Assembly: GCA_958267355.1 (NCBI GenBank)
Contig: OY279575.1
Location: forward strand, 540,335 to 604,334
DNA from: an uncultured Alphaproteobacteria bacterium
Lineage (GTDB): Bacteria; Pseudomonadota; Alphaproteobacteria; JALCBB01
Length of the DNA stretch: 64,000 bases
Reading direction: 5' to 3'
The notes under the pieces were generated by a model. The model did not search any database, was not told the DNA's origin, and worked only from the letters and a program-made list of their open reading frames with translations. Made by a program: the position numbers and the translations under genes. Within the stretch, counting starts at the first letter, position 1; every line of letters begins with the position of its first letter. Shown piece after piece: positions 9,868-64,000 of the stretch.

Positions 9868-9952
9868 GCGGCTGTGGCGGAACTGGTAGACGCGCAAGAT
9901 TCAGGTTCTTGTGGGAGCTAATCCCGTGGAGGTTCAAGTCCTCTCAGCCGCA
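9868..9952 (+). tRNA. tRNA-Leu (anticodon CAG)
   Basis: Acceptor stem GCGGCTG/CAGCCGC, anticodon loop tTCAGgt, long variable arm, T-arm GGTTCAAGTCC, discriminator A. Confidence 0.85.
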
Positions 9953-10441
9953 CACCCCTTGCGGGGCGGCGTCAATGCCAGCCCTTGTATTCCCCACCAA
10001 CTGTTAAGCCCCATAGTTTTAGTAACGGGTTAATTGAGCCAATACCCCTTTGCGGGGGGAGCGTGAGATTAGGGGGATTAACTGGCTCCCATTTTTGAGA
10101 CGAAGCCCTATAAAGGCTTAACCCACCAGTAAGACGAAGACGGGAGAAATAGCGGCTTGCCCTGCAGGGGGCGAAGCCCCCGCAGGGTTTGCGCGATTGA
10201 GCGCAAACCGCGGGAGATTAACCTTAATGGAACTGCCCACGCCGTAGCTCGTCCGAAGGTACCGCGAAAACGGAGTTTTCGCGGTACGCGCACGGCGAGA
10301 TGCGGCAAATAGCCCGCGCAAGCGGGCGGATTAAATGTTGCGAGAAAGCCCAACCCTAACCCCTTCTTTTTCGGATTAGGAATAAGGGTAATTAGAAGAC
10401 GGGCGAGATGCGGCAACTAGCCTGTATAGGTGCTTTGCGAT
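9953..10441. repeat. mosaic of dispersed repeat elements (left flank of island)
   Basis: Segments recur at 15250-15460 in direct orientation (e.g. ccccttgcggggggagcgtgagattagggggattaactggctccc) and at 14868-14940 in inverted orientation (tttgagacgaagccctataaaggcttaacccaccagtaagacgaagacggg). Confidence 0.8.
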
Positions 10442-11365
10442 CTATCTATCGCGGTTTCTTTTGTGGGCAAGAATGTTCAGCTTTTCTCGGTAGATTGCAA
10501 CAGAGTGATCTTTAAGAAACTTTTTTATCGTTTTTCCTTTTATAAAGATTGCAAGACGCCTTTCCCACGAAACCTTGTAGGTTAACTCTACTTCATCATA
10601 TCGGTTTGGCTTGCAGCTGGTTAAAAATCTTTCGTCTCCGACATGGAAGTAATCTTCAAAGTGGCCGAGATATTTCACAAACTTTCCGACAACAGGAACC
10701 AGCCCTAAGCAAAATTTTATTTTCTGCATCGTCTCCTTGCCAGGAGGTAACATCGTCACGCAATCAATTGCATTGACAACTCTGTAAATCGGCGTCTTGA
10801 TGGCGTACGACCAAGCTTCGTCTCCCACGCGTGGAGCTCCAAAGGTATAGCAAGCGGCAACGCCGCCTTGATGGTTTAATCTTTTTGCGGCGATCGTGGC
10901 TAAAGCTCCGCCTATGCCGTGTCCTGTTATCAATAGGGGCTTGTGGGCAAATGGCTCTTTGTTCAGGCTCGTTTGAATTGCGCTGGCAATTTGTTCGTAG
11001 GCTTCTTTAAAGCCAGCATGCACGCCGCCATTGGTTTCGCAGGAAACTTTGCGAGCGTTTGCTTCTGTTTTTATATCTTTGAAGCGTTTGGCTTTGTGTC
11101 CTTTGAATGCGAGTATTAGTAAGGTGTTGTTTGAAACGAGCAGGGCTTCGGTTCCGTTGGTATCGTATTTTTGTTCTACGGATAGTCCGATCTTTTCGAT
11201 TTCGGCATCTACTTCGTCAAAAGGCATGTAGGCAAGCTCGGACAGGTGCGCCATTAGCCAAGCGATGCGGTCGCTATATCCTTGCCGATAGGTTGGGAGC
11301 TGGTTGCTTTGGATATAATCCACCAGCAGGGCTTTTTTATCTTCGCTACTTGAAGGCTTGCTCAT
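10442..11365 (-). CDS. class-3 (fungal-type) lipase family protein
   Basis: Nucleophile-elbow pentapeptide GHGIG (in ITGHGIGGALA), Lipase_3-like context, AT-rich codon usage. Start at ATG 11365 (MSKPSSSEDKK). Confidence 0.75.
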   Translation of the reverse strand: MSKPSSSEDKKALLVDYIQSNQLPTYRQGYSDRIAWLMAHLSELAYMPFDEVDAEIEKIGLSVEQKYDTNGTEALLVSNNTLLILAFKGHKAKRFKDIKTEANARKVSCETNGGVHAGFKEAYEQIASAIQTSLNKEPFAHKPLLITGHGIGGALATIAAKRLNHQGGVAACYTFGAPRVGDEAWSYAIKTPIYRVVNAIDCVTMLPPGKETMQKIKFCLGLVPVVGKFVKYLGHFEDYFHVGDERFLTSCKPNRYDEVELTYKVSWERRLAIFIKGKTIKKFLKDHSVAIYREKLNILAHKRNRDR

Positions 11366-11461
11366 GGTTCTGACTTCCTTGAGACTTGTTCCGTGCGGAG
11401 TGCATTCTACCACAGCGTGAAGGCGTGGCAGTTGCAGGGGCGAAACGTGTCGGCTGTTCTT

Positions 11462-14260
11462 CTACCTGCGGGTTTTGAAGGGGATATAAAGCCCACCTGC
11501 TACGCCATGGGCGGTTTTGCCTCGCTCAATGGAGCCACAGCTAGAGCTTGCGTAGCAGACTTTGCCTCCTGCGAAGTGGGCGGCATAGCCCGACAGGGTG
11601 AAACGGGTGCCTTGAGCCGTGGAGAAGCCTAAAGCCGCCTGTACACCCCGCTCGGTGCCTGTGAGCGAGCGTAAAAGCGAGCCTGTGCCATGAACCGAAG
11701 CCTGTGTTTGCCAGGCGGTCAGGCTGACTTGCGACACGGGGCGTAGTGTGGCGGTGAAGCGCAGGTTTTCGCTACGGGCGAAGGAAAAGCCTTGGCTTCC
11801 CTGCGAGCCGAAGAAGCCATCGGAAGAAAAGCGTGTGGCGGCGACTTGCCAGCGGATTCCTGCGTGATGACCTGCAATAGCGGCTCCGCTTTCGCCTGTC
11901 TTCTCGGAGACCAAGCCGAGCCGTGTTTTGTCCTGCTTTGTGCCAGTGAGCGGCAGAAAAGCCCGCGCCGAAGGCGGAGTCGGCGCATACGCCACCTGTC
12001 CCTGCGGATTGTAGCCAAAGAAGCGGCTTTCGCCTTCGGGTGCAATTGCCAACTTGCCGTTGCTCTGGGCGGGTAGGGAGAGTCCGCCGAACTGCCGCCC
12101 ATAGAAAGCACTCAAAAAGCGAGTTGCGACTCCGCTTGCCCCCGCAGGAGCTGACCGAGTCGCCTTAGCCACTTCTTTTGCGGTTTCGTCTGCGGCACAC
12201 CACAAATCAAATCGCCCACGGCCTGTGTCTTTGTCTAGCCCGACGGCTCCGATATCCACGGAGCATTTATCAAAGATTGCCATAGCATCGCTGGCGGTGG
12301 CGGAAGCGGGCAGGTGTTCCCAGATCATGGTAAAGGCAGAAATGGCACCGCTAGAAGACGAGAAAGAAGTGCCGCCATGAAATTCGCTATTGTCTTTCGC
12401 GTTCATTAGCTTGTAGCGGTAGGGAAAGCCCACGCACCATTTTTCTACGCCTTCACAGCCGTTTGCCCTGTATCTTCCTCTATGGTCTTCTGTGAGTCCG
12501 TAGATGAATCGCACCCGCTCGCTTGTGTCGGCGATATACTTTTGGTTACGCATACCGCCTTGCATATAGGTATCGTCTTGGTCGGGAGAGTCTAGGTTAC
12601 TATTTCCTGTGCCTACGAAGATATAGGGGCCAGCGGGTTGGTTGGTGTTGGTGTTAAAAATATCTCCGAGCTGAATTCCGTGCTTTGAGAAGATGCGGGC
12701 AGTGGCAATGGAGACAACGCCATCGGTGGGTAACGCATTATAGAGTGGCGGTATGTTGTAGGTTGAAAAATTGCCGACTCTATACCGCCCACTGAGTCCG
12801 TCGTTTGCGTCTTTTGGCAGGAGTCGTTTTGCTAGGTTGGTGACTTGATATCCGTGGGTGGTTTTTGTCGCGGGGTTTGGAATGGGACTGTAATAGAAGT
12901 TTTGCCGAGAGATATCTTCGTGATCATGGAAGCTCACATTCAATCCGCCGTTATCCATAATGAAGATACCGCTACGCTTGGTGCGCTGTGCCTTTGTAAG
13001 CCCGTGGTCGCGGAAGACTTGAGCCAGACAGCTTTCTTCATTGCCGTTTAGGTTTTCGCCGATTTGGCAGGTAACGGTTTTGTATCCTTCGGTTCTTTCT
13101 GCGGCACACCAGAGGTCAAACCGCCCGCGGCCTGTGCTTTCGTCTAATCCTGTTGTGCCGAGATCTACGGCACAGCTATCAAAAATTGACATTGCATCGC
13201 TGGCGGTGGCGGAAGCGGGCAGGTGTTCCCAAATCATCGTAAAGGCGGTAAGGGCTCCGCTTGAGGTGGAGATAGAAGAGCCACCAAAAGTCCTTCCCTT
13301 GACCTTGTACTCATCAGGAAAGCCCACGCACCATTTTTCTACGCCCTTGCATCCGTTGGTTCTGGATCGTGCTGTTTGTGCTTGGTTGAGTCCATAGATG
13401 AAGCGCACCCTGTCGCTTCGCATGGCGACGAGTTCTTGATTGCGTATTCCGACTCCTGAGCGTGTGTAGCCGTTATCTTGGTCAGGAGTCATAACACTGC
13501 CATTATTTCCTGTCGGAGCAAAAATGTAAGGCCCCATAGCTTGTTTTGTGACGCTGTCAAAAACATCGGCGACTCCGATACCGCTTCGTTGGAAAAGCAA
13601 ACCATAGGCAATGGCAACTGCACCATTCGTGGGCAGGTTATTGTAAACCACTCGGAACTGGGCTGAAGATGGCGTAGAAGAAGTTATGTAATGCCCCTTG
13701 AAGCCTTTTGTGGCTGGGCTACGACTATCTTTAGGAAGCAACGCATCGGCAACTGTGGTGACTTGGTGTGCGTGAAGATTTGAAGCTGGATTGCTAACAA
13801 TTTGATCGCTGGTTTGAACATCCGTTTTAACACCAAGGAGCGTTTCCGTGTATGTATTTTGAGTGCCTTGACTTGGGTTTCCGCCATTGTCAACGAGGAA
13901 AATATTGTCGCGCTTGGTGCGTGTGAGTTTTCGCCCTTCGCGGAAAGTGCGCGTGAGGCAACTTTCTGTGCCTGTGTCTAAGTCTTGTCCGTTTTGACAA
14001 GCCAGGACTTGCGCCTGTGTAAGTGCCACAGGCGTGCCCACACCCGTGCCAGGCGTAGGAGGCGTAACCACAGGCGGGTCTTGTGGGTCAGGGTCAGGGT
14101 CTGGGTCTGGGTCAGGCTGGGTAACAGGCGCACCGCCACCACCACCGCCGCCACCGCCACCTCCACCACAGGCAACAAGCGGCACAGTAAGTAGCAAAGA
14201 AAGCAACAAGACAACAAAAACACAGAAACCCCGCACGGAAACAAGCCCCGCCCCACTCAT
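11462..14260 (-). CDS. lipoprotein with two tandem S8 (subtilase)-like domains and autotransporter-like C-terminal region
   Basis: Lipobox LVAC followed by a G12 tract and PDPDPDPDPDPQDP linker. Two ~275-aa tandem repeats each carry D (F[L/I][VM]DNGG), H (HAHQV / HGYQV) and S (GSSISTSSG / GTSFSSSSG) subtilase-like motifs. C-terminal ~250 aa show an alternating beta-strand pattern like an autotransporter beta domain. Confidence 0.6.
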   Translation of the reverse strand: MSGAGLVSVRGFCVFVVLLLSLLLTVPLVACGGGGGGGGGGGGAPVTQPDPDPDPDPDPQDPPVVTPPTPGTGVGTPVALTQAQVLACQNGQDLDTGTESCLTRTFREGRKLTRTKRDNIFLVDNGGNPSQGTQNTYTETLLGVKTDVQTSDQIVSNPASNLHAHQVTTVADALLPKDSRSPATKGFKGHYITSSTPSSAQFRVVYNNLPTNGAVAIAYGLLFQRSGIGVADVFDSVTKQAMGPYIFAPTGNNGSVMTPDQDNGYTRSGVGIRNQELVAMRSDRVRFIYGLNQAQTARSRTNGCKGVEKWCVGFPDEYKVKGRTFGGSSISTSSGALTAFTMIWEHLPASATASDAMSIFDSCAVDLGTTGLDESTGRGRFDLWCAAERTEGYKTVTCQIGENLNGNEESCLAQVFRDHGLTKAQRTKRSGIFIMDNGGLNVSFHDHEDISRQNFYYSPIPNPATKTTHGYQVTNLAKRLLPKDANDGLSGRYRVGNFSTYNIPPLYNALPTDGVVSIATARIFSKHGIQLGDIFNTNTNQPAGPYIFVGTGNSNLDSPDQDDTYMQGGMRNQKYIADTSERVRFIYGLTEDHRGRYRANGCEGVEKWCVGFPYRYKLMNAKDNSEFHGGTSFSSSSGAISAFTMIWEHLPASATASDAMAIFDKCSVDIGAVGLDKDTGRGRFDLWCAADETAKEVAKATRSAPAGASGVATRFLSAFYGRQFGGLSLPAQSNGKLAIAPEGESRFFGYNPQGQVAYAPTPPSARAFLPLTGTKQDKTRLGLVSEKTGESGAAIAGHHAGIRWQVAATRFSSDGFFGSQGSQGFSFARSENLRFTATLRPVSQVSLTAWQTQASVHGTGSLLRSLTGTERGVQAALGFSTAQGTRFTLSGYAAHFAGGKVCYASSSCGSIERGKTAHGVAGGLYIPFKTRR

Positions 14261-14481
14261 CCAGCGATTGCCTTCTAGTTGCACGGATTATCCTCCACCA
14301 CCAACCCAATAATAGCCCATCCTACACCCCCACAGAACAAGCCTGTAATAATCGCAAGCAAACCCAAAGTGGGTTATATTAAGTCCCAGCGGAGGCATTA
14401 GCCAACGTTAATGCGGTGACGCACACCGCCACTTCGTGGTGGCGCACGTCGCCGCTCAGCGGTGGCTGACGCCACCGCTTC

Positions 14482-14567
14482 GCGGTTGTGGCGGAATGGT
14501 AGACGCGCAGCGTTGAGGGCGCTGTGGAGGCAACTCCGTGGAGGTTCAAGTCCTCTCAACCGCACCA
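14482..14567 (+). tRNA. tRNA-Leu (anticodon GAG)
   Basis: Acceptor GCGGTTG/CAACCGC, anticodon loop tTGAGgg, long variable arm, T-arm GGTTCAAGTCC, encoded CCA. Confidence 0.85.
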
Positions 14568-15706
14568 TTGTTACGGCGGCTTGCGCCGCCTTTGGGCGCA
14601 TCTGGCTTGCTATCCGCGTCCTACGGACGCGATACGCAAGACCACCTGCGCCTGTGGGCAGTTCCACCACCCTTGTTCTTCACGGGCGTTTCACGCCCTA
14701 CTTAAACAAACGGGCTTCACAAACTTCATACTTACCGTTCGGCCCGCTGGCTAAAACGCCAGCGGGCACTTTGGCGTGTTGTTACATCCGCTCGCGTTCG
14801 TGCCCTACGGGCACTCGGTGGCTAAAGCCGCCACTTCGTGGTGGGTCTTCATCTCTAAAGTCGGGAAAGGGCAAGCCGCTATTTCCCCGTCTTCGTCTTA
14901 CTGGTGGGTTAAGCCTTTATAGGGCTTCATCTCAAAGTTAATCTGTGCCTTCCCCATCTTTACAGTACCCTGATTTCTAAGCCGCAGAAAAATGGGTAAG
15001 TGTTGGGCTTTCTCGCAACATTTTTTACGCACGCTTGCGCGGGCTTTGGGCGCATCTGGCTTGCTATCCGCGTCCTACGGACGCGATACGCAAGACCACC
15101 TGCGCCTGTGGGCAGTTCCACCACCCTTGTTCTTCACGGGCGTTTCACGCCCTACTTAACTGACGGGCTTCACAAGCTTCACACATACCGTATGTCCCGC
15201 TGGCTAAAACGCCAGCGGGACACTTGGCAGTGCGGCATTCGTGCCAGCCCTTGTTTCCCCCACCAGCTGTTAAGCCCCATAGTTTTAGTGACGGGTTAAT
15301 TGAGCCGATACCCCTTGCGGGGGGAGCGTGAGATTAGGGGGATTAACTGGCTCCCGTTATGGAGATGAAGACGGGAGAAGTAGCGGCTTGCCCCTTTGCG
15401 GGGGGAGCGTGAGATTAGTGGGATTAACTGGCTCCCGTTATGGAGATGAAGACCCACCGAGCACCCGTAGGGTGCGAACGCGAGCGTAGCGGAGTGAAAC
15501 GAGCGGAGCGAAGCGGACACCGCGTAGCGGCGGCTTTAGCCACCGCGAAGCATCTTGCGCGTAGCGCAAGGCTTCGCGGCACTAGGCGGCGTAAGCCGCC
15601 GTAACTTAAACAGTGAGAGAAAGTCCGCCCCTAACCCCTTTTTCTGCGGCTCAGAAATCAGGGTAGTAAGAAGACAGGAGGATAACGGCTTACTCGCGGG
15701 TTAGAT
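14568..15706. repeat. repeat-rich non-coding region (right flank of island), direct and inverted repeat mosaic
   Basis: A ~117-bp perfect direct repeat at 14589-14705 and 15044-15160, extending with mismatches to about 200 bp. Inverted copies of 9953-10441 elements. Palindromic pairs at 14795-14860 versus 15455-15500. Six-frame ORFs here are not protein-like. Confidence 0.8.
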
Positions 15707-16321
15707 TCAAGCAGTCTTGCGGACATAAGCGCGGGAGCGGTGTTCAGGGCAGTAGGGACTGTCTTCAGTCGCTGGCGATCCGCAAAAGTGAAAATCAGGA
15801 GTCTTCGGAGTACCCATCGGCCATTGACACGGCCTGCCACCAGTCCGCACAACAGGCACCTGCTCCGCACCAGACTTCTTCGCCACAGAAGCACTAGAAG
15901 CACCACCAGAAGCACCACCAGAAACCCGCGGACGAAACGCCGCCACTTCCTGACCACCCTTGCCACCAGTGCCACCAGCACCACCAGCTCCAGCCTTAGC
16001 CTTCGCGCCACTCGCACCACCACGAGCATTACGTAAGCTCTGCTCCGCTTCTTGAGCGCGAAGCGAAACCCATTCCTCGCCCGCCGCCCTAGCGTTGCTG
16101 CCATGGGAATCACCCCCACGCCTGCTAGGAGGACTCAAAGCCACTCCAGCCCCAGCACTGCCCCCCGTGTTGCCAGGCACAGCCCGCGCCAAGCCCAAAC
16201 GATGCGCCTTGCCAATCACCGCATTCTTGCTATATCCCAAACGCTCGCCAATCTGGCTCGTGGTCAAACCACTGCCCCAGAGCTCCTTGAGTTCAGAAAC
16301 TTTTTCTTCAGTCCAAGCCAT
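15707..16321 (-). CDS. gcrA: cell-cycle transcriptional regulator GcrA
   Basis: N-terminus MAWTEEKVSELKELWGSGLTTSQIGERLG, Gly/Ala-rich linker, C-terminus CQWPMG...FHFCG...YCPEHR. Start at ATG 16321. Confidence 0.88.
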   Translation of the reverse strand: MAWTEEKVSELKELWGSGLTTSQIGERLGYSKNAVIGKAHRLGLARAVPGNTGGSAGAGVALSPPSRRGGDSHGSNARAAGEEWVSLRAQEAEQSLRNARGGASGAKAKAGAGGAGGTGGKGGQEVAAFRPRVSGGASGGASSASVAKKSGAEQVPVVRTGGRPCQWPMGTPKTPDFHFCGSPATEDSPYCPEHRSRAYVRKTA

Positions 16322-16613
16322 AGTCAGGTCTCTCCAATATCTAGTGCCAGCGATACCTTCGCTGACCAAGTATAGAAGCGATTCGCCACAGCGCATCACA
16401 ACAGCACAACATATTGGGGGAAATCTAACGAATTCCCCAAAAGAGTTTTCTCCCCGTTCCACAAACTGTGGAAAGTCATCCAGTAAATGAACCACCACCA
16501 GCCAAAATAAAACAAAACACGAATCAAATCCTACAAAAACAAATTCACAAACCACAATAAACACCGAAAATATATAAACTTTCAGATTCTTCTTAGATTA
16601 TTACCAGATTCTT

Positions 16614-31308: not shown

Positions 31309-31779
31309 TTACCCCTTCAAGCGCACGATTAGATCTACTTCAACCGCAACATTAAGCGGCAAGACTGCGACTCCAACTGCTGAGCGGGCGTGTTTGCCTG
31401 CTTCACCAAAAACCTTGCCAAGCAAATCAGAAGCTCCGTTAGCGACTTTTGGCTGTTCGCTATAAGACGGGTCTGAGGCAACAAAGACAGCAATTTTTTC
31501 AATTCGACGGACTTGAGTTAAATCTCCACCGCAAGCGGCGCGGATCTGCGCAATCGCGTTGATGATGCATTGCTCGGCGGCGGCGACTCCTTGTTCGGTG
31601 GTTACATCTTTGCCTAGCAAGCCACTGGCAACGGCTGTCCCATCTTTGAGGGGAAGCTGCCCTGAGATGTAGAGCGTACTGTCGGTCTTCACATAGGGCA
31701 GATAGTTCGCCACAGGAGCAGGGGCTTCAGGCAGGGTAATACCCAGTGCTTCAAGGCGTGAGTCAGGCGTATCAGACAT
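31309..31779 (-). CDS. ridA: RidA/YjgF family protein
   Basis: YjgF/chorismate-mutase-like fold signature (LPYVKTDSTLYISGQLP...NVAVEVDLIV). Confidence 0.82.
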   Translation of the reverse strand: MSDTPDSRLEALGITLPEAPAPVANYLPYVKTDSTLYISGQLPLKDGTAVASGLLGKDVTTEQGVAAAEQCIINAIAQIRAACGGDLTQVRRIEKIAVFVASDPSYSEQPKVANGASDLLGKVFGEAGKHARSAVGVAVLPLNVAVEVDLIVRLKG

Positions 31780-31959: not shown

Positions 31960-32300
31960 TTCAACGATTCTTGCCTCCCACACGGCTTGTATGCCCGCTA
32001 CAGGGCTTTATTCCCGCCACAGGCACAAAGTCCCCACAGGGCTTTATAGGGCTTCCACGGGGCTTATAGGGCTTGTACAGGGCTTTTCCACTGCCCCTAA
32101 GGCTTGGTACCGCCACAGGGCTTATAGGGCTTCCACGGGGCTTATAGGCTTCTATATGGCTTCTAGGGGGCTTATGGGGCTTGTGAAGGGCTTGTATGCC
32201 CGCTACAGGGCTTTATCCCGCCACAGGCACAATGATAGCCCTACAGGGCTTATAGGGCTTCTACGGGGCTTATAGGCTTCTATATGGCTTTCTAGGGGGC
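31960..32300. repeat. GGGCTTATAGGGCTT-type degenerate tandem array with two ~100-bp direct repeats
   Basis: 31990-32090 roughly matches 32195-32295, both built from 10-12-bp GGGCTT(A/C)T(A/G)G units. The same motif family appears at 1060-1190, 36285-36300 and 38020-38075. Confidence 0.8.
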
Positions 32301-33338
32301 TTATAAGGCTTCCACGGGGCCTATGGCTGCCGCACGGCTTACCCGCTCGCGTAGGGCTTCAGCAGAGACAGGGAGAGGGGCTACAACAATCGCCGTAGCC
32401 CCAGAGACTTCCAGACGGCGTAGAGCCGCAAACAGGTTATGGGCGGCTTGTTGGGGGTTTCCTGATGGGCTTAAGGTTTCTGCCGCCAGTGGCGTTCCTA
32501 TCGGCTCTGTGGAGCCAAAACCAAGCCAAGCTTCACTACGCTCCACCCGTGGCGATTCGCCCTGCCGTAGAAGCCGCACAGGAATAGCAGGAGCGTAATG
32601 CCTGAAATGTCTCCCTGGGGATAAGGGGCGGGACTCTACCGCTACGGCTTCCGTGGCTTCTATAGCTATAGCTTCTGTGGCTTCTGTGGCTTCAGGCAAG
32701 GCGGCTAGGGGTGCGCCCAAGACTTCTTCTAACTCTGGGCGGGAAATCGCTCCGTAGCGCAAAAGGGTAGGGGCTTTGTCAGGCAGGCACAGGACAATTG
32801 TCGACTCAAGTCCGTGTTCGCTGGCTCCTGCGTCTAGGATGAGTGCAGGGGCAAATTCACTCTCGGCAAAATCATCTGCTACATGCTGGGCTTCGGTAGC
32901 ACTCGGTCTGCCCGACCGATTAGCACTCGGAGCCGCAATAGGACAATGAACCGCTTTCAACAAATCTTGGGCAACAGGGTGCGCAGGAACCCGCACCGCA
33001 AGGGTAGGCAAATTCGCCGTCACCGCAGAAACAATCGCAGAATCCATAAGTGGAGCCACAAGGGTTAAAGCTCCAGGCCAGAAGGCTTCACCAAGCCGCT
33101 TGGCTGTGTCATCAAAGGAACAGGTTTTTTCCGCTTCTGCCCGATTGCCAAGATGCACAATCAACGGATTCACCGCAGGACGATTTTTCGCCGCGTAAAG
33201 ACGGGCAATAGCTTGCCCGTTGGTTGCGTCGGCTCCTAAGCCATAAACCGTTTCGCTAGGAAAGGCGACAAGTGCGCCCTGAGTCAGCTCTTGTGCGGCT
33301 TGGTCTATCGTCTCGGCAGTCGGAGAGACAAGTTTCAT
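32301..33338 (-). CDS. tsaC: L-threonylcarbamoyladenylate synthase (Sua5/YrdC type)
   Basis: YrdC motif AFPSETVYGLGADATN and a C-terminal Sua5 domain. In-frame ATEA(T/I) repeat at 32641-32700. Confidence 0.88.
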   Translation of the reverse strand: MKLVSPTAETIDQAAQELTQGALVAFPSETVYGLGADATNGQAIARLYAAKNRPAVNPLIVHLGNRAEAEKTCSFDDTAKRLGEAFWPGALTLVAPLMDSAIVSAVTANLPTLAVRVPAHPVAQDLLKAVHCPIAAPSANRSGRPSATEAQHVADDFAESEFAPALILDAGASEHGLESTIVLCLPDKAPTLLRYGAISRPELEEVLGAPLAALPEATEATEAIAIEATEAVAVESRPLSPGRHFRHYAPAIPVRLLRQGESPRVERSEAWLGFGSTEPIGTPLAAETLSPSGNPQQAAHNLFAALRRLEVSGATAIVVAPLPVSAEALRERVSRAAAIGPVEAL

Positions 33339-60836: not shown

Positions 60837-61204
60837 GTGGTATAATATATTTTAAAGAAAGAGTTAGGTATTTTAGTTATTAATTTACTTTAACTTTGTA
60901 TGGCTGGCTGAAATTCGGGCTGTAATTGGACAAAAGCGCGGTAAAAGCCTGTTTTTTGGAGAGGGTAAAGTTTTGTTTTTACCTTATATTTGTGGAGATT
61001 AGGGCGAAAATCCTGCGTGTTTTGTGGTAATATAGGGTTTCCGTAGGGGAGTGCTTCCTGCTTTGCTGTGAAGGCTCTGGGGCGTGAAGGCCCAGATTCA
61101 GGTTAAGGCGAGTTAGGTAGGGCGAGTTAGGTGTGGAGCGGTTGCGTTAGTTCGGGGACTGTACAAGGCATTATTGGTTATCAAGCGGAAGATCTGGGGA
61201 AGCA

Positions 61205-64000
61205 ATGGGGCACTACGGAGACTTAGCGGGACGCGCCCGCTTAAGCGTTCTATTGGCGGCGGCGGCGTCTTTGCTGGTGGCGTTGGTGTTGCTGTCGGGT
61301 CCGCAGGTTGGCGGGGCGCAGGAGCAGTCGTTTAGCGAGCCTTCTGATGCGTTGAATAGCGTTGCGGGTAGCGATGAGTTGCCGGAGGCGAGCGAGCGCA
61401 CGGCGCGGATTGGCACGGGTGGTTCGTCCAATGGTAGGGATTCTGAAGGCTTGCGTGATTGGGTGGAAGGCACGGCAGATTCACGCCTTCGTGAGAAGTT
61501 TTTGTCTTATACGGCGGGACGGGCTGAAGATTTAGGAAAATCTATATATGGTTTGAATTTTCAACTGCAGTCGCGATTGACTTGGGGTAGGCACGACAGC
61601 ATTAAGGGTTCGGTTCGGGCGGTAGTTCCGCTGGGCGGACGCGGAGGCAAGAGCGGTGGCAACTGGGCGTATTTTTTACAGCCCAGCATTAACATTTGGG
61701 ATGATGATTTAGACGAGCGGCGCACTGACTTAGGCTTGGGCTTGGTCGGCAGGTTGCGCACGGGTACGGACTCGTCTTTGGGCTTGGGTGGCTTTCTTGA
61801 GCGTGGTCGCTACGGACACGAACGGGCTTCGCTAGGCACCGAGTGGCGGCACCGCCGTTCGTCGGTGGGTGTGAATGCGTACTTGCCGTTAAGCAAGGAG
61901 CGGGCGGGTGTGAATGGCAGGCGCGAGCAAGTTGTTTCGGGCTATGACATTCAGTTGAAGCAGGGGTTTGGTGACAGGCTGGTGCTGTCGGCTTCGGCGA
62001 ACCGCTGGAACAGTAAGACCAGCGAGTCATTGTCTTCGGGTGGAAGCGCGGAAATTTCTTATGCGCTGACTCCGTCTATTCGGGTTTTGAGTGGCTACAC
62101 TTGGAGCGATAAGTCGTTAACCGAACGCGAATCCTATAATGCGGGTTTTGAATTCCGCCTACCTGCTGACAAGCTTTCGGGCTTCCAAGCGGGGGCGCGA
62201 AACCTGTATGAGCCTTTCGCCCGCAACGAGCGGATAACCACGCAGGTTACGCTTGAGGGCAGGCAAGATGTCCTTCTTTTCCTGCGTACGAAGGTTAAAG
62301 TTATGCAGGGTGGAAGTTTGACGGCTAGTTCTCCCTCCAGTCAGATCCAGCAGCCCACGGGTAGCGAATCCGAAGTTAAAGTACCGATTACTTTGCTTTT
62401 TGAAGATACCTTAACCAGAAAAGTTTGCCTTAGGATGGAGTTCAGCGGCACGGCACAAAGCGGGGAAGACTATCTACCTTTGGCTACATATGTGCAATTG
62501 GATCCGAATACAAGAGTTAAAAAATTTGATGCTTTTGATCTATTGAATGACTCGGGGACAAATCCGCATGAGACTGAAGAGTCGGTAACAATTCATTTTC
62601 TTTTAGAAAATATTGATCAGTGTTCAGGAGAGCACGGCGTAGTGGCATCTTATTATGTTTTGAATATTCCTGACGAAGAAAAAATAGAGCGTAACAAGCG
62701 GCTTGGTAGAGAGGAAGTTTTTTCGATTAGTATGCGGCTTGCTCCGCGGGGGACTCCCACGGTTGCTCAGCAAGGCGATTTTCGTTTGCTCCTAGAACTA
62801 GACGATGACAGCGTGGATGAGACTAATGACAATAATAATACGGTTACTGCGACTGTTACGGTGCAGAAGAAAGATGGCAATGCCTATATTGACGCAACAG
62901 CGAGTGATATAAGCGTGCGTAATTTGCCTGATGGTTTGCCCTATCGTTTGGTTTTGTTGAATCGTTCTGCGACCTACGGAGAAGACTTCACGGCAGAAGA
63001 CAGCGAGGCAGATGGTGGAGTCGGGGGTAGAATTGAAGGTGTTTTTGGCAAGGGTGAAAGTGCTTTATCTGCCACGCATGAAATTGAAATCAGCGAAGAC
63101 GACAAGACCGAAGGTGCAGAGAGTTTTGTTGTACAGCTATTTTCTCGATCTGATGAGGTAAACGCGGAGCCTGCGGCGGGCGTATCGGTTGCGATAGCCG
63201 ATACCAGTACTGACCCAGATGTTGCGACACCGCCGACGCGGGTAACCCTTTCGTTGTCGCAGAACAGTAGAACCGAAGGACAAAGCTTAACCATAACCGC
63301 AACTCTGGCAACGGCGGCGGCGGCACAGGTTGATATTCCGATAACGATTGAAGGGCATAGTCAGACTCCTGAAGCGACTCAGGCTGACTTGGCGGATCCG
63401 ATTCCTGACACGATAGAAGTTGCGGCGAGTGCAACAACAGGCACGGCGACGGTTACGATTAAAGACGATACAGATTACGAAAACCTTGAGCGGTTTATTG
63501 TGGCTTTGGGTGAGATGCCTGAAGGCTATGTAGCGGGAGCGGTTGATGGCACAGGTGCGCGGGCGGTTTTTGAAGTGGCGGTAAGTGATATTCCTGCGAT
63601 TGCGAGCGAGCAATTGCAGGTTAAGGCTTTTACTACGCCGAATGTTTTGACCGAGGCGAGTAGCGGGCGCAGTGCGAATTTGTCCATCACGGTTGAGCGT
63701 TCGTCGCAGGATATGGCGGAGGTTAAGAGCTATGACTTCCCGTTGACTTTCACGGATGGCACGGCACAGGCAAGCGAAGAGGGCAAGGAAGATTATGAAA
63801 CGCCTGAGAAGGTGACGGTTTCGTTTGGGGCGAGCGAAACCGAGAAGACGACAACTTTTGGCATTTCGGCGAAGGATGATGATTTAGCTGAAGGCGCACA
63901 GCGTGAAAACTTTTCGTTTCGTTTGGGTAATCCTGCTGATGCGGAGTCGGTCACTTGGTTAGAGTCGGCGGGTTCGCGCACGCGGTTTGTCTCTATTGTT
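61205..64000 (+). CDS. large secreted repeat adhesin, possible inverse autotransporter (intimin/invasin-like beta domain) with Calx-beta-like repeats; 3'-truncated by window end
   Basis: Stop-free frame from ATG 61205 to the window end by my manual translation; it is missing from the ORF track presumably because it is open-ended. Signal peptide LLAAAASLLVALVLLSGPQVGGAQE. The next ~350 aa have an alternating beta pattern, followed by repeats with a Calx-beta-like signature (ENFSFRLGNP, ESFVVQLFS). Confidence 0.55.
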   Translation, partial: MGHYGDLAGRARLSVLLAAAASLLVALVLLSGPQVGGAQEQSFSEPSDALNSVAGSDELPEASERTARIGTGGSSNGRDSEGLRDWVEGTADSRLREKFLSYTAGRAEDLGKSIYGLNFQLQSRLTWGRHDSIKGSVRAVVPLGGRGGKSGGNWAYFLQPSINIWDDDLDERRTDLGLGLVGRLRTGTDSSLGLGGFLERGRYGHERASLGTEWRHRRSSVGVNAYLPLSKERAGVNGRREQVVSGYDIQLKQGFGDRLVLSASANRWNSKTSESLSSGGSAEISYALTPSIRVLSGYTWSDKSLTERESYNAGFEFRLPADKLSGFQAGARNLYEPFARNERITTQVTLEGRQDVLLFLRTKVKVMQGGSLTASSPSSQIQQPTGSESEVKVPITLLFEDTLTRKVCLRMEFSGTAQSGEDYLPLATYVQLDPNTRVKKFDAFDLLNDSGTNPHETEESVTIHFLLENIDQCSGEHGVVASYYVLNIPDEEKIERNKRLGREEVFSISMRLAPRGTPTVAQQGDFRLLLELDDDSVDETNDNNNTVTATVTVQKKDGNAYIDATASDISVRNLPDGLPYRLVLLNRSATYGEDFTAEDSEADGGVGGRIEGVFGKGESALSATHEIEISEDDKTEGAESFVVQLFSRSDEVNAEPAAGVSVAIADTSTDPDVATPPTRVTLSLSQNSRTEGQSLTITATLATAAAAQVDIPITIEGHSQTPEATQADLADPIPDTIEVAASATTGTATVTIKDDTDYENLERFIVALGEMPEGYVAGAVDGTGARAVFEVAVSDIPAIASEQLQVKAFTTPNVLTEASSGRSANLSITVERSSQDMAEVKSYDFPLTFTDGTAQASEEGKEDYETPEKVTVSFGASETEKTTTFGISAKDDDLAEGAQRENFSFRLGNPADAESVTWLESAGSRTRFVSIV

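What the first reader, a model, noticed from the sequence alone, without database searches (positions are those of the whole stretch)
9953..15706. Mosaic of dispersed inverted and direct repeat elements flanking the island
Several 40-120-bp modules recur, for example 9975-10090 with 15250-15360 and 15395-15455 (direct), 10092-10160 with 14868-14940 (inverted), and a ~117-bp perfect direct repeat at 14589-14705 and 15044-15160. Many modules have internal hairpins such as ccgccacttcgtggtggcg and gcccgctggctaaaacgccagcgggc. They resemble REP/MITE-like elements or small-RNA gene duplications, and their inverted arrangement around the island could mediate inversion or excision.
Basis: seen in the sequence. 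Interest (0 to 1): 0.6.

Follow-up and report, generated by a model that had tools for sequence, protein, structure and literature searches.

The report
Structured repeat units beside tRNA genes
Two gene-free stretches next to leucine-tRNA genes of an uncultured alphaproteobacterium are built from shuffled, diverged copies of one hairpin-rich unit of about 140-230 bases that looks like a small structured RNA gene; it is a low-copy family private to this lineage, sits at a chromosomal inversion breakpoint, and is not a widespread mobile element.

Summary
The repeats are real (BLAST E 1e-20 to 1e-81; a 116-nt exact repeat). They fill two gene-free stretches, 9954-10441 and 14285-15706, each starting at a tRNA-Leu gene. 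They are not a dispersed REP/MITE family. Nothing else matches in the 64-kb window, and the searches of genome, metagenome, viral, plasmid and phage collections found nothing. One partial copy lies ~100 kb away in the same genome.

One module, the "core" (10143-10332), is the only non-coding segment conserved in a sister species (87%). A covariance model built from it also recognises module d (on the minus strand) and module e as diverged paralogs. They share the same helices, 33 of 61 pairs show compensatory changes, and the GNRA loop of the terminal hairpin never varies.

The mosaic is therefore shuffled copies, in both orientations, of one structured unit, most likely a small-RNA gene family. 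Transcription is untested and there is no Rfam match. Strains ~97% identical differ here by whole-module indels and paired stem substitutions.

The "island" is not shown to be mobile: lipase next to tRNA-Leu(CAG) is ancestral. Region B is, however, one breakpoint of an inferred ~99-kb inversion, and both breakpoints lie just 3' of tRNA genes.

The parts
9868..9953 (+). tRNA-Leu(CAG); region A starts at its 3' end
   Evidence: ARAGORN; Rfam tRNA 53.4 bits
9976..10108 (+). Module a. a1 is 9976-10044. a2 is a two-hairpin unit at 10045-10108, present or absent as a block between strains.
   Evidence: 92% to 15242-15370. A 43-nt block of a2 is missing in strain L013. A partial a1 copy lies in a third spacer of the same genome, L015:13198-13290.
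10094..10142 (+). Module b, the sequence upstream of the core; ends in the junction motif GAAGAC
   Evidence: 97% inverted copy at 14868-14936; alignment
10143..10332 (+). Core unit of 190 nt: 5' leader GAAATAGCGGCTTGCCC (10146-10162), a three-way junction, GGAACTGCCCAC (10229-10240), a long helix capped by a 13-bp palindrome (10259-10287), and a terminal 6-bp hairpin with GCAA loop (10312-10327)
   Evidence: 87% identical to the sister species L003, where coding DNA is 71-85% identical and no other spacer aligns. RNAalifold gives 61-63 pairs, 5 compensatory. MFE -101.9 kcal/mol, z -6.2. No Rfam hit at E<=5.
10333..10403 (+). Module c, the spacer that follows the terminal hairpin of a unit
   Evidence: Copies at 14953-15028 (inverted) and 15601-15678 (direct)
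10435..10454 (+). Terminator-like hairpin plus T-run on the + strand, overlapping the lipase stop codon
   Evidence: Consensus scan; not conserved in strain L013
14414..14488 (.). Three 23-nt periodic hairpin units directly upstream of, and running into, tRNA-Leu(GAG). A fourth unit at 14816-14844 is an indel between strains.
   Evidence: Family D6; 23-nt indel at 14817-14839 against L013
14482..14567 (+). tRNA-Leu(GAG); module d1 starts 7 nt after its 3' end
14570..14707 (-). Unit d1, a 138-nt paralog of the core read on the minus strand. Terminal GCAA hairpin at 14575-14590. The whole repeated block is 14561-14771.
   Evidence: cmsearch 40 bits, E about 1e-9 to 1e-10, full model. Minus strand -73.7 kcal/mol (z -7.1) against -65.7 on the plus strand.
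14776..14936 (-). Inverted partial unit: b' (14868-14936), leader (14869-14885), a truncated a2 and e' (14789-14843)
   Evidence: In L013 the stretch from leader to d1 scores as one unit, 42.7 bits.
14953..15028 (-). Inverted copy of module c (c'). On the minus strand it follows the terminal hairpin of d2.
15024..15161 (-). Unit d2, the second 138-nt core paralog on the minus strand. Terminal hairpin at 15029-15044. The whole repeated block is 15014-15225.
   Evidence: cmsearch 40.7 bits; folding
15242..15372 (+). Second copy of module a
15374..15605 (+). e-unit of 232 nt: leader GAAGTAGCGGCTTGCCC (15377-15393), a2, e, and a terminal GTAA hairpin (15585-15600). The most diverged core paralog.
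   Evidence: cmsearch 23.9 bits, E 5e-5 to 1e-4 with default filters, with orthologs in L002 and L013. With filters off the match splits into two weak pieces of 13.3 and 6.8 bits. Folding.
15601..15706 (+). Module c and a leader-like sequence running up to the stop codon of GcrA (15707-16564, minus strand)

Best explanation
Regions A and B are a locally expanded and rearranged family of one structured non-coding unit of about 140-230 nt.

Each unit has:
- a 5' (G/T)AAGTAG leader running into a helix;
- a variable 5' hairpin domain;
- a long helix capped by a palindromic hairpin;
- a short linker;
- a terminal 6-bp GC hairpin whose GYAA (GNRA) loop never varies.

A spacer, module c, usually follows. 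The next unit begins after a GAAGAC junction.

The window holds at least four units: core (+), d1 (-), d2 (-) and the e-unit (+), plus fragments. The core is the conserved, probably functional copy. It is present once per sampled lineage, ancestrally in the spacer between gcrA and tRNA-Pro.

I read the units as genes, and decaying duplicates, of a small structured RNA that is absent from Rfam. Selection keeps the helices, which explains the compensatory changes. Duplication, inversion, unequal recombination at the short shared junction motifs and gene conversion between copies shuffle the pieces into the mosaic.

Shown: the repeats, the paralogy, the shared structure with covariation, conservation of the core across species, module-level differences between strains, and the break of synteny. 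Inferred: that the units are transcribed, which strand is the sense strand, any regulatory role, and the mechanism of the inversion.
For: 1. The core is 87% identical over 179 nt to the sister species L003. There gcrA DNA is 71% identical, other genes are 76-85%, and no other spacer aligns.
2. Orthologs from four lineages keep 61-63 predicted pairs, with compensatory changes in hairpin 2 (TTTGCGC/GCGCAAA, TCTGCGC/GCGCAGA, TTCGCGC/GCGCGAA), in the terminal hairpin (GCCCGC/GCGGGC to GCACCC/GGGTGC), and a paired indel in hairpin 1.
3. Model R1, built only from cores, finds d on the opposite strand at 40-47 bits (E 1e-9 to 1e-11) and the e-unit at 18-24 bits. In 237 kb searched, the only other matches with E<0.1 were antisense self-matches of the palindromic helix.
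4. On the 16-row alignment, 92% of cells pair, against 33-45% when partners are slid. 33 of 61 pairs have changes on both sides, against 5-7 when slid, and 0 of 500 shuffles reach that.
5. GC hairpins capped by GNRA are rare: 4 in 64 kb, and 3 of them are unit termini, each on the strand the model calls sense.
6. Every unit folds 5-8 kcal/mol better on that strand, z -2.6 to -7.1. The d helix GGGUGGU/ACUGCCC needs two G-U pairs, which exist only on that strand.
7. It is not coding: orthologs differ by 2-3-nt indels.
8. No copy elsewhere in the window, and no transposase or integrase among the Pfam matches and gene tables covering the window.
Against: - There are no expression data.
- No convincing promoter or intrinsic terminator was found for any unit. 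The tails after the terminal hairpin are A-rich, not U-rich.
- G-U against A-C counts across the family do not settle the strand.
- The family alignment was fitted to the model's structure, which inflates the paired percentages.
- Some paired differences between strains are gene conversion from a paralog rather than independent compensatory mutation. In L013, e equals e', and the 3' part of d1 equals the window's d2.
- Selection on DNA hairpins, in single-stranded DNA or cruciforms, would leave the same covariation.
- With default filters the e-unit match is weak (18-24 bits); with filters off it splits into two pieces of 13.3 and 6.8 bits.
- Modules a1, b and c are not explained by the unit model. 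a1 is only weakly structured.
- The family is known from two species in a single metagenome sample.
Confidence: 0.5

Rival explanations
1. The modules are REP/BIME/REPIN-like palindromic elements. They would be non-autonomous DNA hairpins copied by a single-copy HUH tyrosine transposase (RAYT) encoded elsewhere in the genome, piling up at the 3' ends of convergent genes and acting there as mRNA/tRNA stabilisers or terminators.
For: - The arrangement is a mosaic of hairpin modules in both orientations, placed between convergent 3' ends.
- A GTAG motif sits directly 5' of a GC-rich helix in the units. GTAGCG is about tenfold enriched on one strand. The role of GTAG in E. coli REPs is recalled from my own knowledge, not tested here.
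- Whole modules are present or absent between strains about 97% identical.
- A partial a1 copy lies in a third spacer.
- Related alphaproteobacteria show very variable REP copy numbers, for example Br-REP1 (PMC5082802).
Against: - No copy lies outside three spacers in about 86 kb of this genome.
- Copies are old and diverged, with different stem sequences (GCCCGC, GGCGGC, GCACCC). A sequence-specific transposase acting on recently copied elements would not give this.
- The indels are flanked only by 4-5-nt direct repeats typical of slippage.
- No Y1 transposase domain appears in the window or the fetched flanks.
- The core is conserved in position and sequence across species, like a gene.
Confidence: 0.2
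2. The sequence has no function of its own. A palindrome-rich spacer at converging tRNA and mRNA 3' ends would be mutationally unstable, through template switching, slippage and gene conversion. The modules would be debris of repeated local duplication and of the large inversion, and the hairpins ordinary terminators.
For: - Region A is only 87% identical between strains whose flanking genes are 97-98% identical, with block indels.
- The sister species shows independent tandem amplification, 2.9 copies of 131 nt.
- The repeat region coincides with a break of synteny.
- Gene conversion between copies is evident.
Against: - The core is as conserved as, or more conserved than, coding DNA across species.
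- The same multi-helix architecture is kept in paralogs that share little sequence, and 33 of 61 pairs covary.
- The GNRA loop is invariant and always on the same relative strand.
- The hairpins lack U-tracts.
Confidence: 0.17
3. The regions are long structured trailers co-transcribed with the tRNA-Leu genes, or long 3' UTRs of gcrA and the lipase gene. Processing would release fragments, as with sRNAs derived from tRNA 3' external transcribed spacers.
For: - Both regions start at a tRNA 3' end, and a promoter-like site lies upstream of tRNA-Leu(CAG).
- A + strand terminator-like site closes region A.
- The core shares its direction with tRNA-Leu(CAG) here, with tRNA-Pro in L002 and with gcrA in L003.
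Against: - The units next to tRNA-Leu(GAG), and next to tRNA-Pro in L002, are antisense to the tRNA.
- The core is inverted in place between L002 and L003 relative to both neighbouring genes. This argues for an autonomous unit.
- The terminator-like site is not conserved in L013.
Confidence: 0.1
4. The repeats are attachment-site remnants of an integrative island (lipase plus the 940-aa protein) inserted at a tRNA gene.
For: tRNA genes lie at both edges, and repeats flank two genes.
Against: - The two tRNAs are different isoacceptors, not a duplicated att site.
- There is no integrase.
- Lipase next to tRNA-Leu(CAG) is conserved in a relative that has none of the modules.
- GC content is unremarkable.
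Confidence: 0.03

Closest known systems
REP / BIME elements of enterobacteria, and REPIN-RAYT systems (PMC3116915, PMC3337134)
   Same: GC-rich palindromes combined in mosaic patterns and both orientations. They sit in spacers at the 3' ends of transcription units, with a GTAG-like motif 5' of a hairpin, and are known to vary between strains.
   Different: REPs and REPINs are 20-100 nt, occur in tens to hundreds of near-identical copies, and go with a RAYT gene. Here the units are 140-230 nt with several helices. There are few copies, they are strongly diverged with compensatory changes, and one copy is conserved like a gene. No RAYT was seen, although the whole genome was not searchable.
Rhizobium-specific intergenic mosaic elements (RIME) and Br-REP1/2 of Bradyrhizobium (PMC5082802; RIME cited there and in PMC2873474)
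   Same: Alphaproteobacterial intergenic elements made of several palindromes. They are found between convergent genes and transcribed as part of 3' UTRs, and their copy number changes fast between relatives.
   Different: There is no sequence similarity (blastn against plasmids gave nothing). Those families are dispersed genome-wide. This one is confined to three spacers in the sequence available.
Multi-copy alphaproteobacterial sRNA families in tandem arrays (for example AbcR1/2 and 'cuckoo'-type RNAs; my own knowledge, all represented in Rfam)
   Same: Paralogous structured sRNA genes clustered in one spacer, with structure conserved more than sequence.
   Different: There is no Rfam match at E<=5. 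Units occur in both orientations, no Rho-independent terminator is present, and expression is unknown.
Repeats downstream of the E. coli tyrT tRNA genes, and sRNAs derived from tRNA 3' external transcribed spacers such as 3'ETS-leuZ (my own knowledge)
   Same: Repeated or functional non-coding sequence directly 3' of tRNA genes.
   Different: Those elements are co-directional with the tRNA and made by unequal crossing-over or processing. Here the units next to the tRNAs are antisense to them.
BOX elements of Streptococcus pneumoniae (my own knowledge)
   Same: Modular build (A-Bn-C) with a variable number of modules and stable predicted RNA structure.
   Different: BOX elements are a dispersed family of more than 100 copies in an unrelated phylum, with unrelated sequence.

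Membership tests
REP / BIME / REPIN | Tens to hundreds of dispersed, near-identical copies per genome | tested here: not met
   No copy elsewhere in the 64-kb window. One partial a1 copy in 22 kb around aspS. Only about 86 kb of the 1.86-Mb genome (about 4.6%) could be searched, so up to roughly 60 copies cannot be excluded.
REP / BIME / REPIN | An associated RAYT (Y1 HUH transposase) gene in the genome | not testable with these tools
   None among the Pfam matches or gene tables of the window and flanks.
REP / BIME / REPIN | A conserved tetranucleotide (GTAG in E. coli) directly 5' of an imperfect palindrome | tested here: inconclusive
   (G/T)AAGTAG precedes the first helix in the core orthologs of L002 and L003, in the d units and in the e-unit; the window and L013 cores read AATAG. 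GTAGCG is about tenfold enriched. The stems differ between copies. The resemblance is recalled from memory, not tested functionally.
MITE | Terminal inverted repeats and target-site duplications flanking each copy | tested here: not met
   Module boundaries fall at shared motifs (GAAGAC, the leader, the terminal hairpin). The 43-nt and 23-nt indels between strains are flanked only by CCC(C/A) and GGTGG direct repeats, as expected for slippage.
Any Rfam family (4227 models) | Match at the gathering score, or at E<=5 | tested here: not met
   Only the two tRNAs matched.
Structured small-RNA gene family | Secondary structure conserved, with compensatory changes, in orthologs and paralogs | tested here: met
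   92% of cells paired against 33-45% when slid; 33 of 61 pairs changed on both sides. Caveat: the alignment was fitted to the model.
Structured small-RNA gene family | Sequence conservation above the neutral level across species | tested here: met
   The core is 87% identical to L003, against 71-85% for coding DNA, and no other spacer aligns. This holds only for the core, not for a, b, c, d or e.
Structured small-RNA gene family | Own promoter and terminator, and a discrete transcript | tested here: inconclusive
   Consensus scans found no promoter or terminator for the units. There are no expression data.
tRNA-targeting integrative island | An integrase gene, and a direct repeat of the tRNA 3' end at the far border | tested here: not met
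   No integrase was found. The two tRNAs are different isoacceptors, 81% identical. The lipase adjacency is ancestral.
Invertible segment or shufflon | A site-specific recombinase gene next to short inverted crossover sites, with alternative orientations in the population | tested here: not met
   No recombinase in the window. The two other contigs that cover this locus (L013, L014) have the same orientation. Read-level data were not available.

The most novel reading that the evidence does not exclude
The units are genes of a previously undescribed structured small RNA of about 190 nt, ancestrally encoded once beside gcrA. In one alphaproteobacterial lineage it has undergone local paralog expansion in both orientations next to tRNA genes. 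Its repeat-laden spacer is a breakpoint of a ~99-kb chromosomal inversion that is polymorphic among co-existing strains of a natural population.
Probability: 0.35. Interest if true: 0.55.

Novelty: new member of a known kind. Interest (0 to 1): 0.4.

Why it matters
If the core is a real RNA, it adds a structured RNA family with no Rfam relative, from a deep and almost unsampled alphaproteobacterial lineage with a 1.86-Mb genome. It sits ancestrally beside the cell-cycle regulator gcrA. It would also give a clear natural example of an RNA gene family diversifying by local duplication, inversion and gene conversion while its helices are preserved.

Independently of function, the locus shows structural change at strain level: block indels, and one breakpoint of a ~99-kb inversion lying within a few bases of a tRNA 3' end. 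This matters for assembling and binning such populations.

Intergenic hairpin repeat families are common in bacteria, so the general phenomenon is not surprising.

Tried and rejected
- **Rfam.** Scans at gathering score and at E<=5 gave only tRNAs.
- **Exact-pattern scans.** Two scans of GTDB genomes (an a2 motif and a 23-mer invariant in the core) and one of JGI metagenomes gave 0 hits. The lineage is absent there, so genome-wide copy number could not be measured.
- **Viral contigs.** Scans with the leader and with the GGAACTGCCCAC motif gave 4-5 single hits each. None was confirmed by the covariance model, so they are chance.
- **blastn of both regions** against plasmids, and of region B against phages, gave nothing.
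- **Coding reading of the core** (an Arg-rich 51-codon frame from TTG at 10157). Rejected because orthologs differ by 2-3-nt indels and by paired stem changes.
- **Promoter and terminator consensus scans.** Uninformative for the units.
- **A GGAAC-N16-CGTC (EcfG-like) match in the core.** Not conserved in L003.
- **Strand test by G-U against A-C counts.** Not decisive.
- **Integron attC-like reading of the GTTAAGC/GCTTAAC pair,** and the shufflon, prophage-att and parS or dif readings. No recombinase is present and the anatomy is wrong.
- **Undoing an inversion between the b and c inverted repeats.** This does not give a more ancestral gene order, because lipase already has its ancestral orientation.
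- **Module a1.** It has only weak predicted structure and remains unexplained.
- **Exact look-up of my first lipase ORF call (323 aa).** It failed because the called gene is 307 aa.
Full report
**Observation.** The sequence between 9954 and 15706 contains two gene-free stretches. Region A is 9954-10441 and region B is 14285-15706. They are separated by two minus-strand genes: a class-3 lipase (10442-11365) and a 940-aa putative lipoprotein with an internal duplication and no Pfam match (11462-14284).

Each region starts at a tRNA-Leu gene: CAG at 9868-9953 and GAG at 14482-14567.
- a: 9976-10105 = 15242-15370 (92%);
- a2: 10045-10108 = 15311-15372 = 15392-15453;
- b: 10094-10163, inverted at 14868-14936 (97%);
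- d: 14561-14771 = 15014-15225 (91.5%), containing a 116-nt exact match, 14590-14705 = 15044-15159;
- c: 10295-10403, inverted at 14953-15060, direct at 15576-15678;
- 23-nt periodic hairpin units at 14414-14488.

E-values run from 1e-9 to 1e-79 for a 64-kb search space. Perfect hairpins cluster here, and region A folds better than shuffled controls on both strands.

**Where it comes from.** Flanking genes (BatA/DUF4159, GcrA, polyprenyl synthase, GlyQS) mark an alphaproteobacterium. The window is part of a 1.86-Mb circular metagenome contig, ENA ERZ19433661 hifiasm.ptg000096c, at record positions about 545,413-609,412.

The lineage is isolated. The only close relatives are in the same sample:
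- L013, a strain about 97% identical with the same gene order;
- L002, a 34-kb contig whose GcrA is 98% identical;
- L003/L004, a sister species on a 1.84-Mb circle, with GcrA 69% and AspS 89% identical;
- more distant genomes L005 (BatA 86%), L006 (81%) and L007/L008 (55%, GCA_028066975.1).

**Not a dispersed family, as far as could be sampled.**
- Self-BLAST of the window finds the modules only in regions A and B.
- L005-L008 have tRNA-Leu genes after BatA but none of the modules.
- Exact-pattern scans of GTDB genomes (two) and JGI metagenomes (one) gave nothing.
- Viral hits were chance, and plasmid and phage blastn gave nothing.
- The one extra copy is 90 nt of a1 in the same genome, about 100 kb away, between a 308-aa gene and a DUF502 gene near tRNA-Pro (L015:13198-13290).
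- Only about 86 kb of this genome (about 4.6%) could be read, so a modest genome-wide copy number is not excluded.
- No transposase, integrase or recombinase domain occurs in the window or the fetched flanks.

**The key result: the modules are diverged copies of one structured unit.**

In L002 the whole set of modules lies once, in a single 0.9-kb spacer between tRNA-Pro(CGG) and gcrA. The order is d-a-e-c'-b-core-c.

In the sister species the same spacer holds only the core (window 10146-10322, 87% identical), preceded by 2.9 tandem copies of a 131-nt unit. Each of these ends in the 17-mer GAAGTAGCGGCTTGCCC, which also precedes the core. In that comparison coding DNA is 71-85% identical and no other spacer aligns.

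The four core orthologs keep 61-63 predicted pairs, with compensatory substitutions in three helices and a paired indel. The core's minimum free energy is -101.9 kcal/mol, z -6.2.

A covariance model built only from these four cores scores as follows:
- the cores at 203-236 bits;
- module d on the opposite strand at 40-47 bits (window 14570-14707 and 15024-15161, E about 1e-9 to 1e-11; also in L002 and L013);
- the stretch leader-a2-e at 18-24 bits (window 15374-15605, E about 5e-5 to 1e-4 with default filters; with filters off it splits into two weak pieces);
- in 237 kb, no other match with E<0.1 apart from antisense self-matches of the palindromic helix.

The aligned units share:
- (G/T)AAGTAG followed by a helix;
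- GGAACTGCCCAC (core and d);
- a long helix ending in AGATGCGSC, around a palindromic apical hairpin;
- a CAAAG or CACTAG linker;
- a terminal 6-bp hairpin whose stem differs (GCCCGC, GGCGGC, GCACCC) while its loop is always GCAA or GTAA.

On this alignment 92% of cells pair, against 33-45% when partners are slid. 33 of 61 pairs have changes on both sides, against 5-7 when slid, and 0 of 500 shuffles reach that. The caveat is that the alignment was fitted to the model.

GC hairpins capped by GNRA are otherwise almost absent from the window: 4 in all, 3 of them unit termini. Each unit folds 5-8 kcal/mol better on the strand the model calls sense, and the d helix GGGUGGU/ACUGCCC needs two G-U pairs. 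Counts of G-U against A-C over the family do not decide the strand.

**Parsing the mosaic.** With the unit in hand, the regions read as follows.
- Region A: a - b - [core, +] - c.
- Region B: tRNA-Leu(GAG) - [d1, -] - inverted partial unit (e', truncated a2, leader, b') - inverted c' - [d2, -] - a - [leader-a2-e unit, +] - c - gcrA.

The higher-order repeat is (upstream b)-(leader)-(body)-(GNRA hairpin)-(c). It occurs on both strands, and junctions recur at GAAGAC and at the leader. Modules a1, b and c are not covered by the model, and a1 is only weakly structured.

**Dynamics.** Between the window and L013, flanking genes are 97-98% identical, region A only 87% and region B 94%. Differences include:
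- a 43-nt a2 block absent in L013;
- an extra b-like copy before the lipase gene in L013;
- a 23-nt hairpin-unit indel;
- several paired stem differences (CGCGTCC/GGACGCG to CGCGCCC/GGGCGCG; CACCC/GGGTG to TGCCC/GGGCA; TTTGCGC/GCGCAAA to TTCGCGC/GCGCGAA).

Some of these are clearly gene conversion from a paralogous copy.

**The island and the rearrangement.** The island is not shown to be mobile. In L005 an orthologous lipase (60% identity) already follows tRNA-Leu(CAG) in the same orientation, with no modules. L013 and L014 have the window's orientation. The two tRNAs are different isoacceptors.

The gcrA-tRNA-Pro adjacency shared by L002 and L003 is, however, broken in the window genome. There tRNA-Pro and aspS lie at record positions about 659.4-661.5 kb, followed by a 308-aa gene, the a1 copy and DUF502. 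Module d, which abuts tRNA-Pro in L002, now abuts tRNA-Leu(GAG).

The two junctions fit a single inversion of about 99.4 kb, between record positions about 559,980 and 659,391. Its breakpoints lie within a few nucleotides 3' of two convergently oriented tRNA genes. The ancestral junction tRNA-Leu(GAG)|308-aa gene was not observed, so this is an inference. L007, where DUF502 lies 8 kb downstream of the tRNA-Leu genes in the same direction, is weakly consistent with it.

Further local events must have followed in the common ancestor of the window strain and L013: duplication of d, inversion of the c'-b-leader block, and transfer of a-b-core-c to the tRNA-Leu(CAG) spacer. I could not order these events.

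**Interpretation.** The best-supported reading (confidence 0.5) is a lineage-specific family of a structured small-RNA-like unit, with one conserved copy and several decaying or diversifying duplicates. The copies are shuffled by recombination at short shared motifs.

The rivals are:
- a REP/BIME/REPIN-like element family mobilised by an unseen RAYT (0.2);
- functionless debris of an unstable palindromic spacer (0.17);
- processed tRNA trailers or 3' UTRs (0.1);
- island att remnants (0.03).

Transcription, the sense strand and any function are inferred, not shown.

**Comparison and novelty.** The unit has no Rfam relative and no sequence match in the public collections searched. In kind it resembles known intergenic mosaic hairpin families: BIME/REP, REPIN (PMC3116915, PMC3337134), RIME and Br-REP1 (PMC5082802). 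It also resembles clustered sRNA paralogs. It fails the copy-number criterion for REP-type families in the sample available, and it meets the structure and conservation criteria for an RNA gene. I therefore rate it a new member of a known kind, of moderate interest.

Noticed in passing
window 31984-32311: A degenerate tandem array with a period of about 10-11 nt (GGGCTTATAGG / GGGCTTCCACG / GGGCTTGTACA), with larger 100-200-nt repeats. It lies between a RidA-like gene (31309-31779, minus) and Sua5/TsaC (32301-33338, minus). Its reverse complement shares the motif GAAGCCCTATAA with module b. Possibly iterated protein-binding sites.
   Followed up: partly
window 9954-10441 and 14285-15706: GANTC (CcrM methylation) sites are strongly depleted in the two repeat regions: 1 observed against 10.6 expected from the window-wide density of 356 sites in 64 kb. 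The regions lie next to gcrA, whose product acts at methylated GANTC promoters.
   Followed up: no
window 11462-14284 (minus strand): A 940-aa putative lipoprotein: LVAC lipobox, a poly-Gly run, PD repeats, two copies of a domain of about 300 aa (12181-12524 against 13090-13418, 74% DNA identity) and a possible C-terminal beta-domain. No Pfam match. Strain L013 encodes a 1010-aa version.
   Followed up: partly
L003:10593-10967: The sister species has 2.9 tandem copies of a 131-nt unit (96% matches) between gcrA and the core. Each ends in the leader GAAGTAGCGGCTTGCCC. This is an independent amplification at the same junction motif.
   Followed up: partly
L013: about 12968-13102: Strain L013 carries an insertion of about 135 nt upstream of tRNA-Leu(CAG). 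It duplicates the promoter-like TTGCCA-17-TATCCT region and the first bases of the tRNA, and adds new promoter-like sites.
   Followed up: no
L015:11885-13360 (same genome, record about 658-659.5 kb): The other end of the inferred ~99-kb inversion. tRNA-Pro(CGG) is followed by two GCAA-capped hairpins (CCGCC/GGCGG and GCACC/GGTGC), a 308-aa ORF with no Pfam match, and then the partial a1 copy before DUF502.
   Followed up: partly
L002 against L003 (the gcrA-tRNA-Pro spacer): The conserved core is inverted in place relative to both flanking genes. It shares its direction with tRNA-Pro in L002 and with gcrA in L003.
   Followed up: partly
window 61151-64000 (+ strand): An open frame of more than 950 codons runs off the right end of the window. 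It is therefore missing from the ORF list, and the apparent 3-kb gene-free stretch there is coding.
   Followed up: yes
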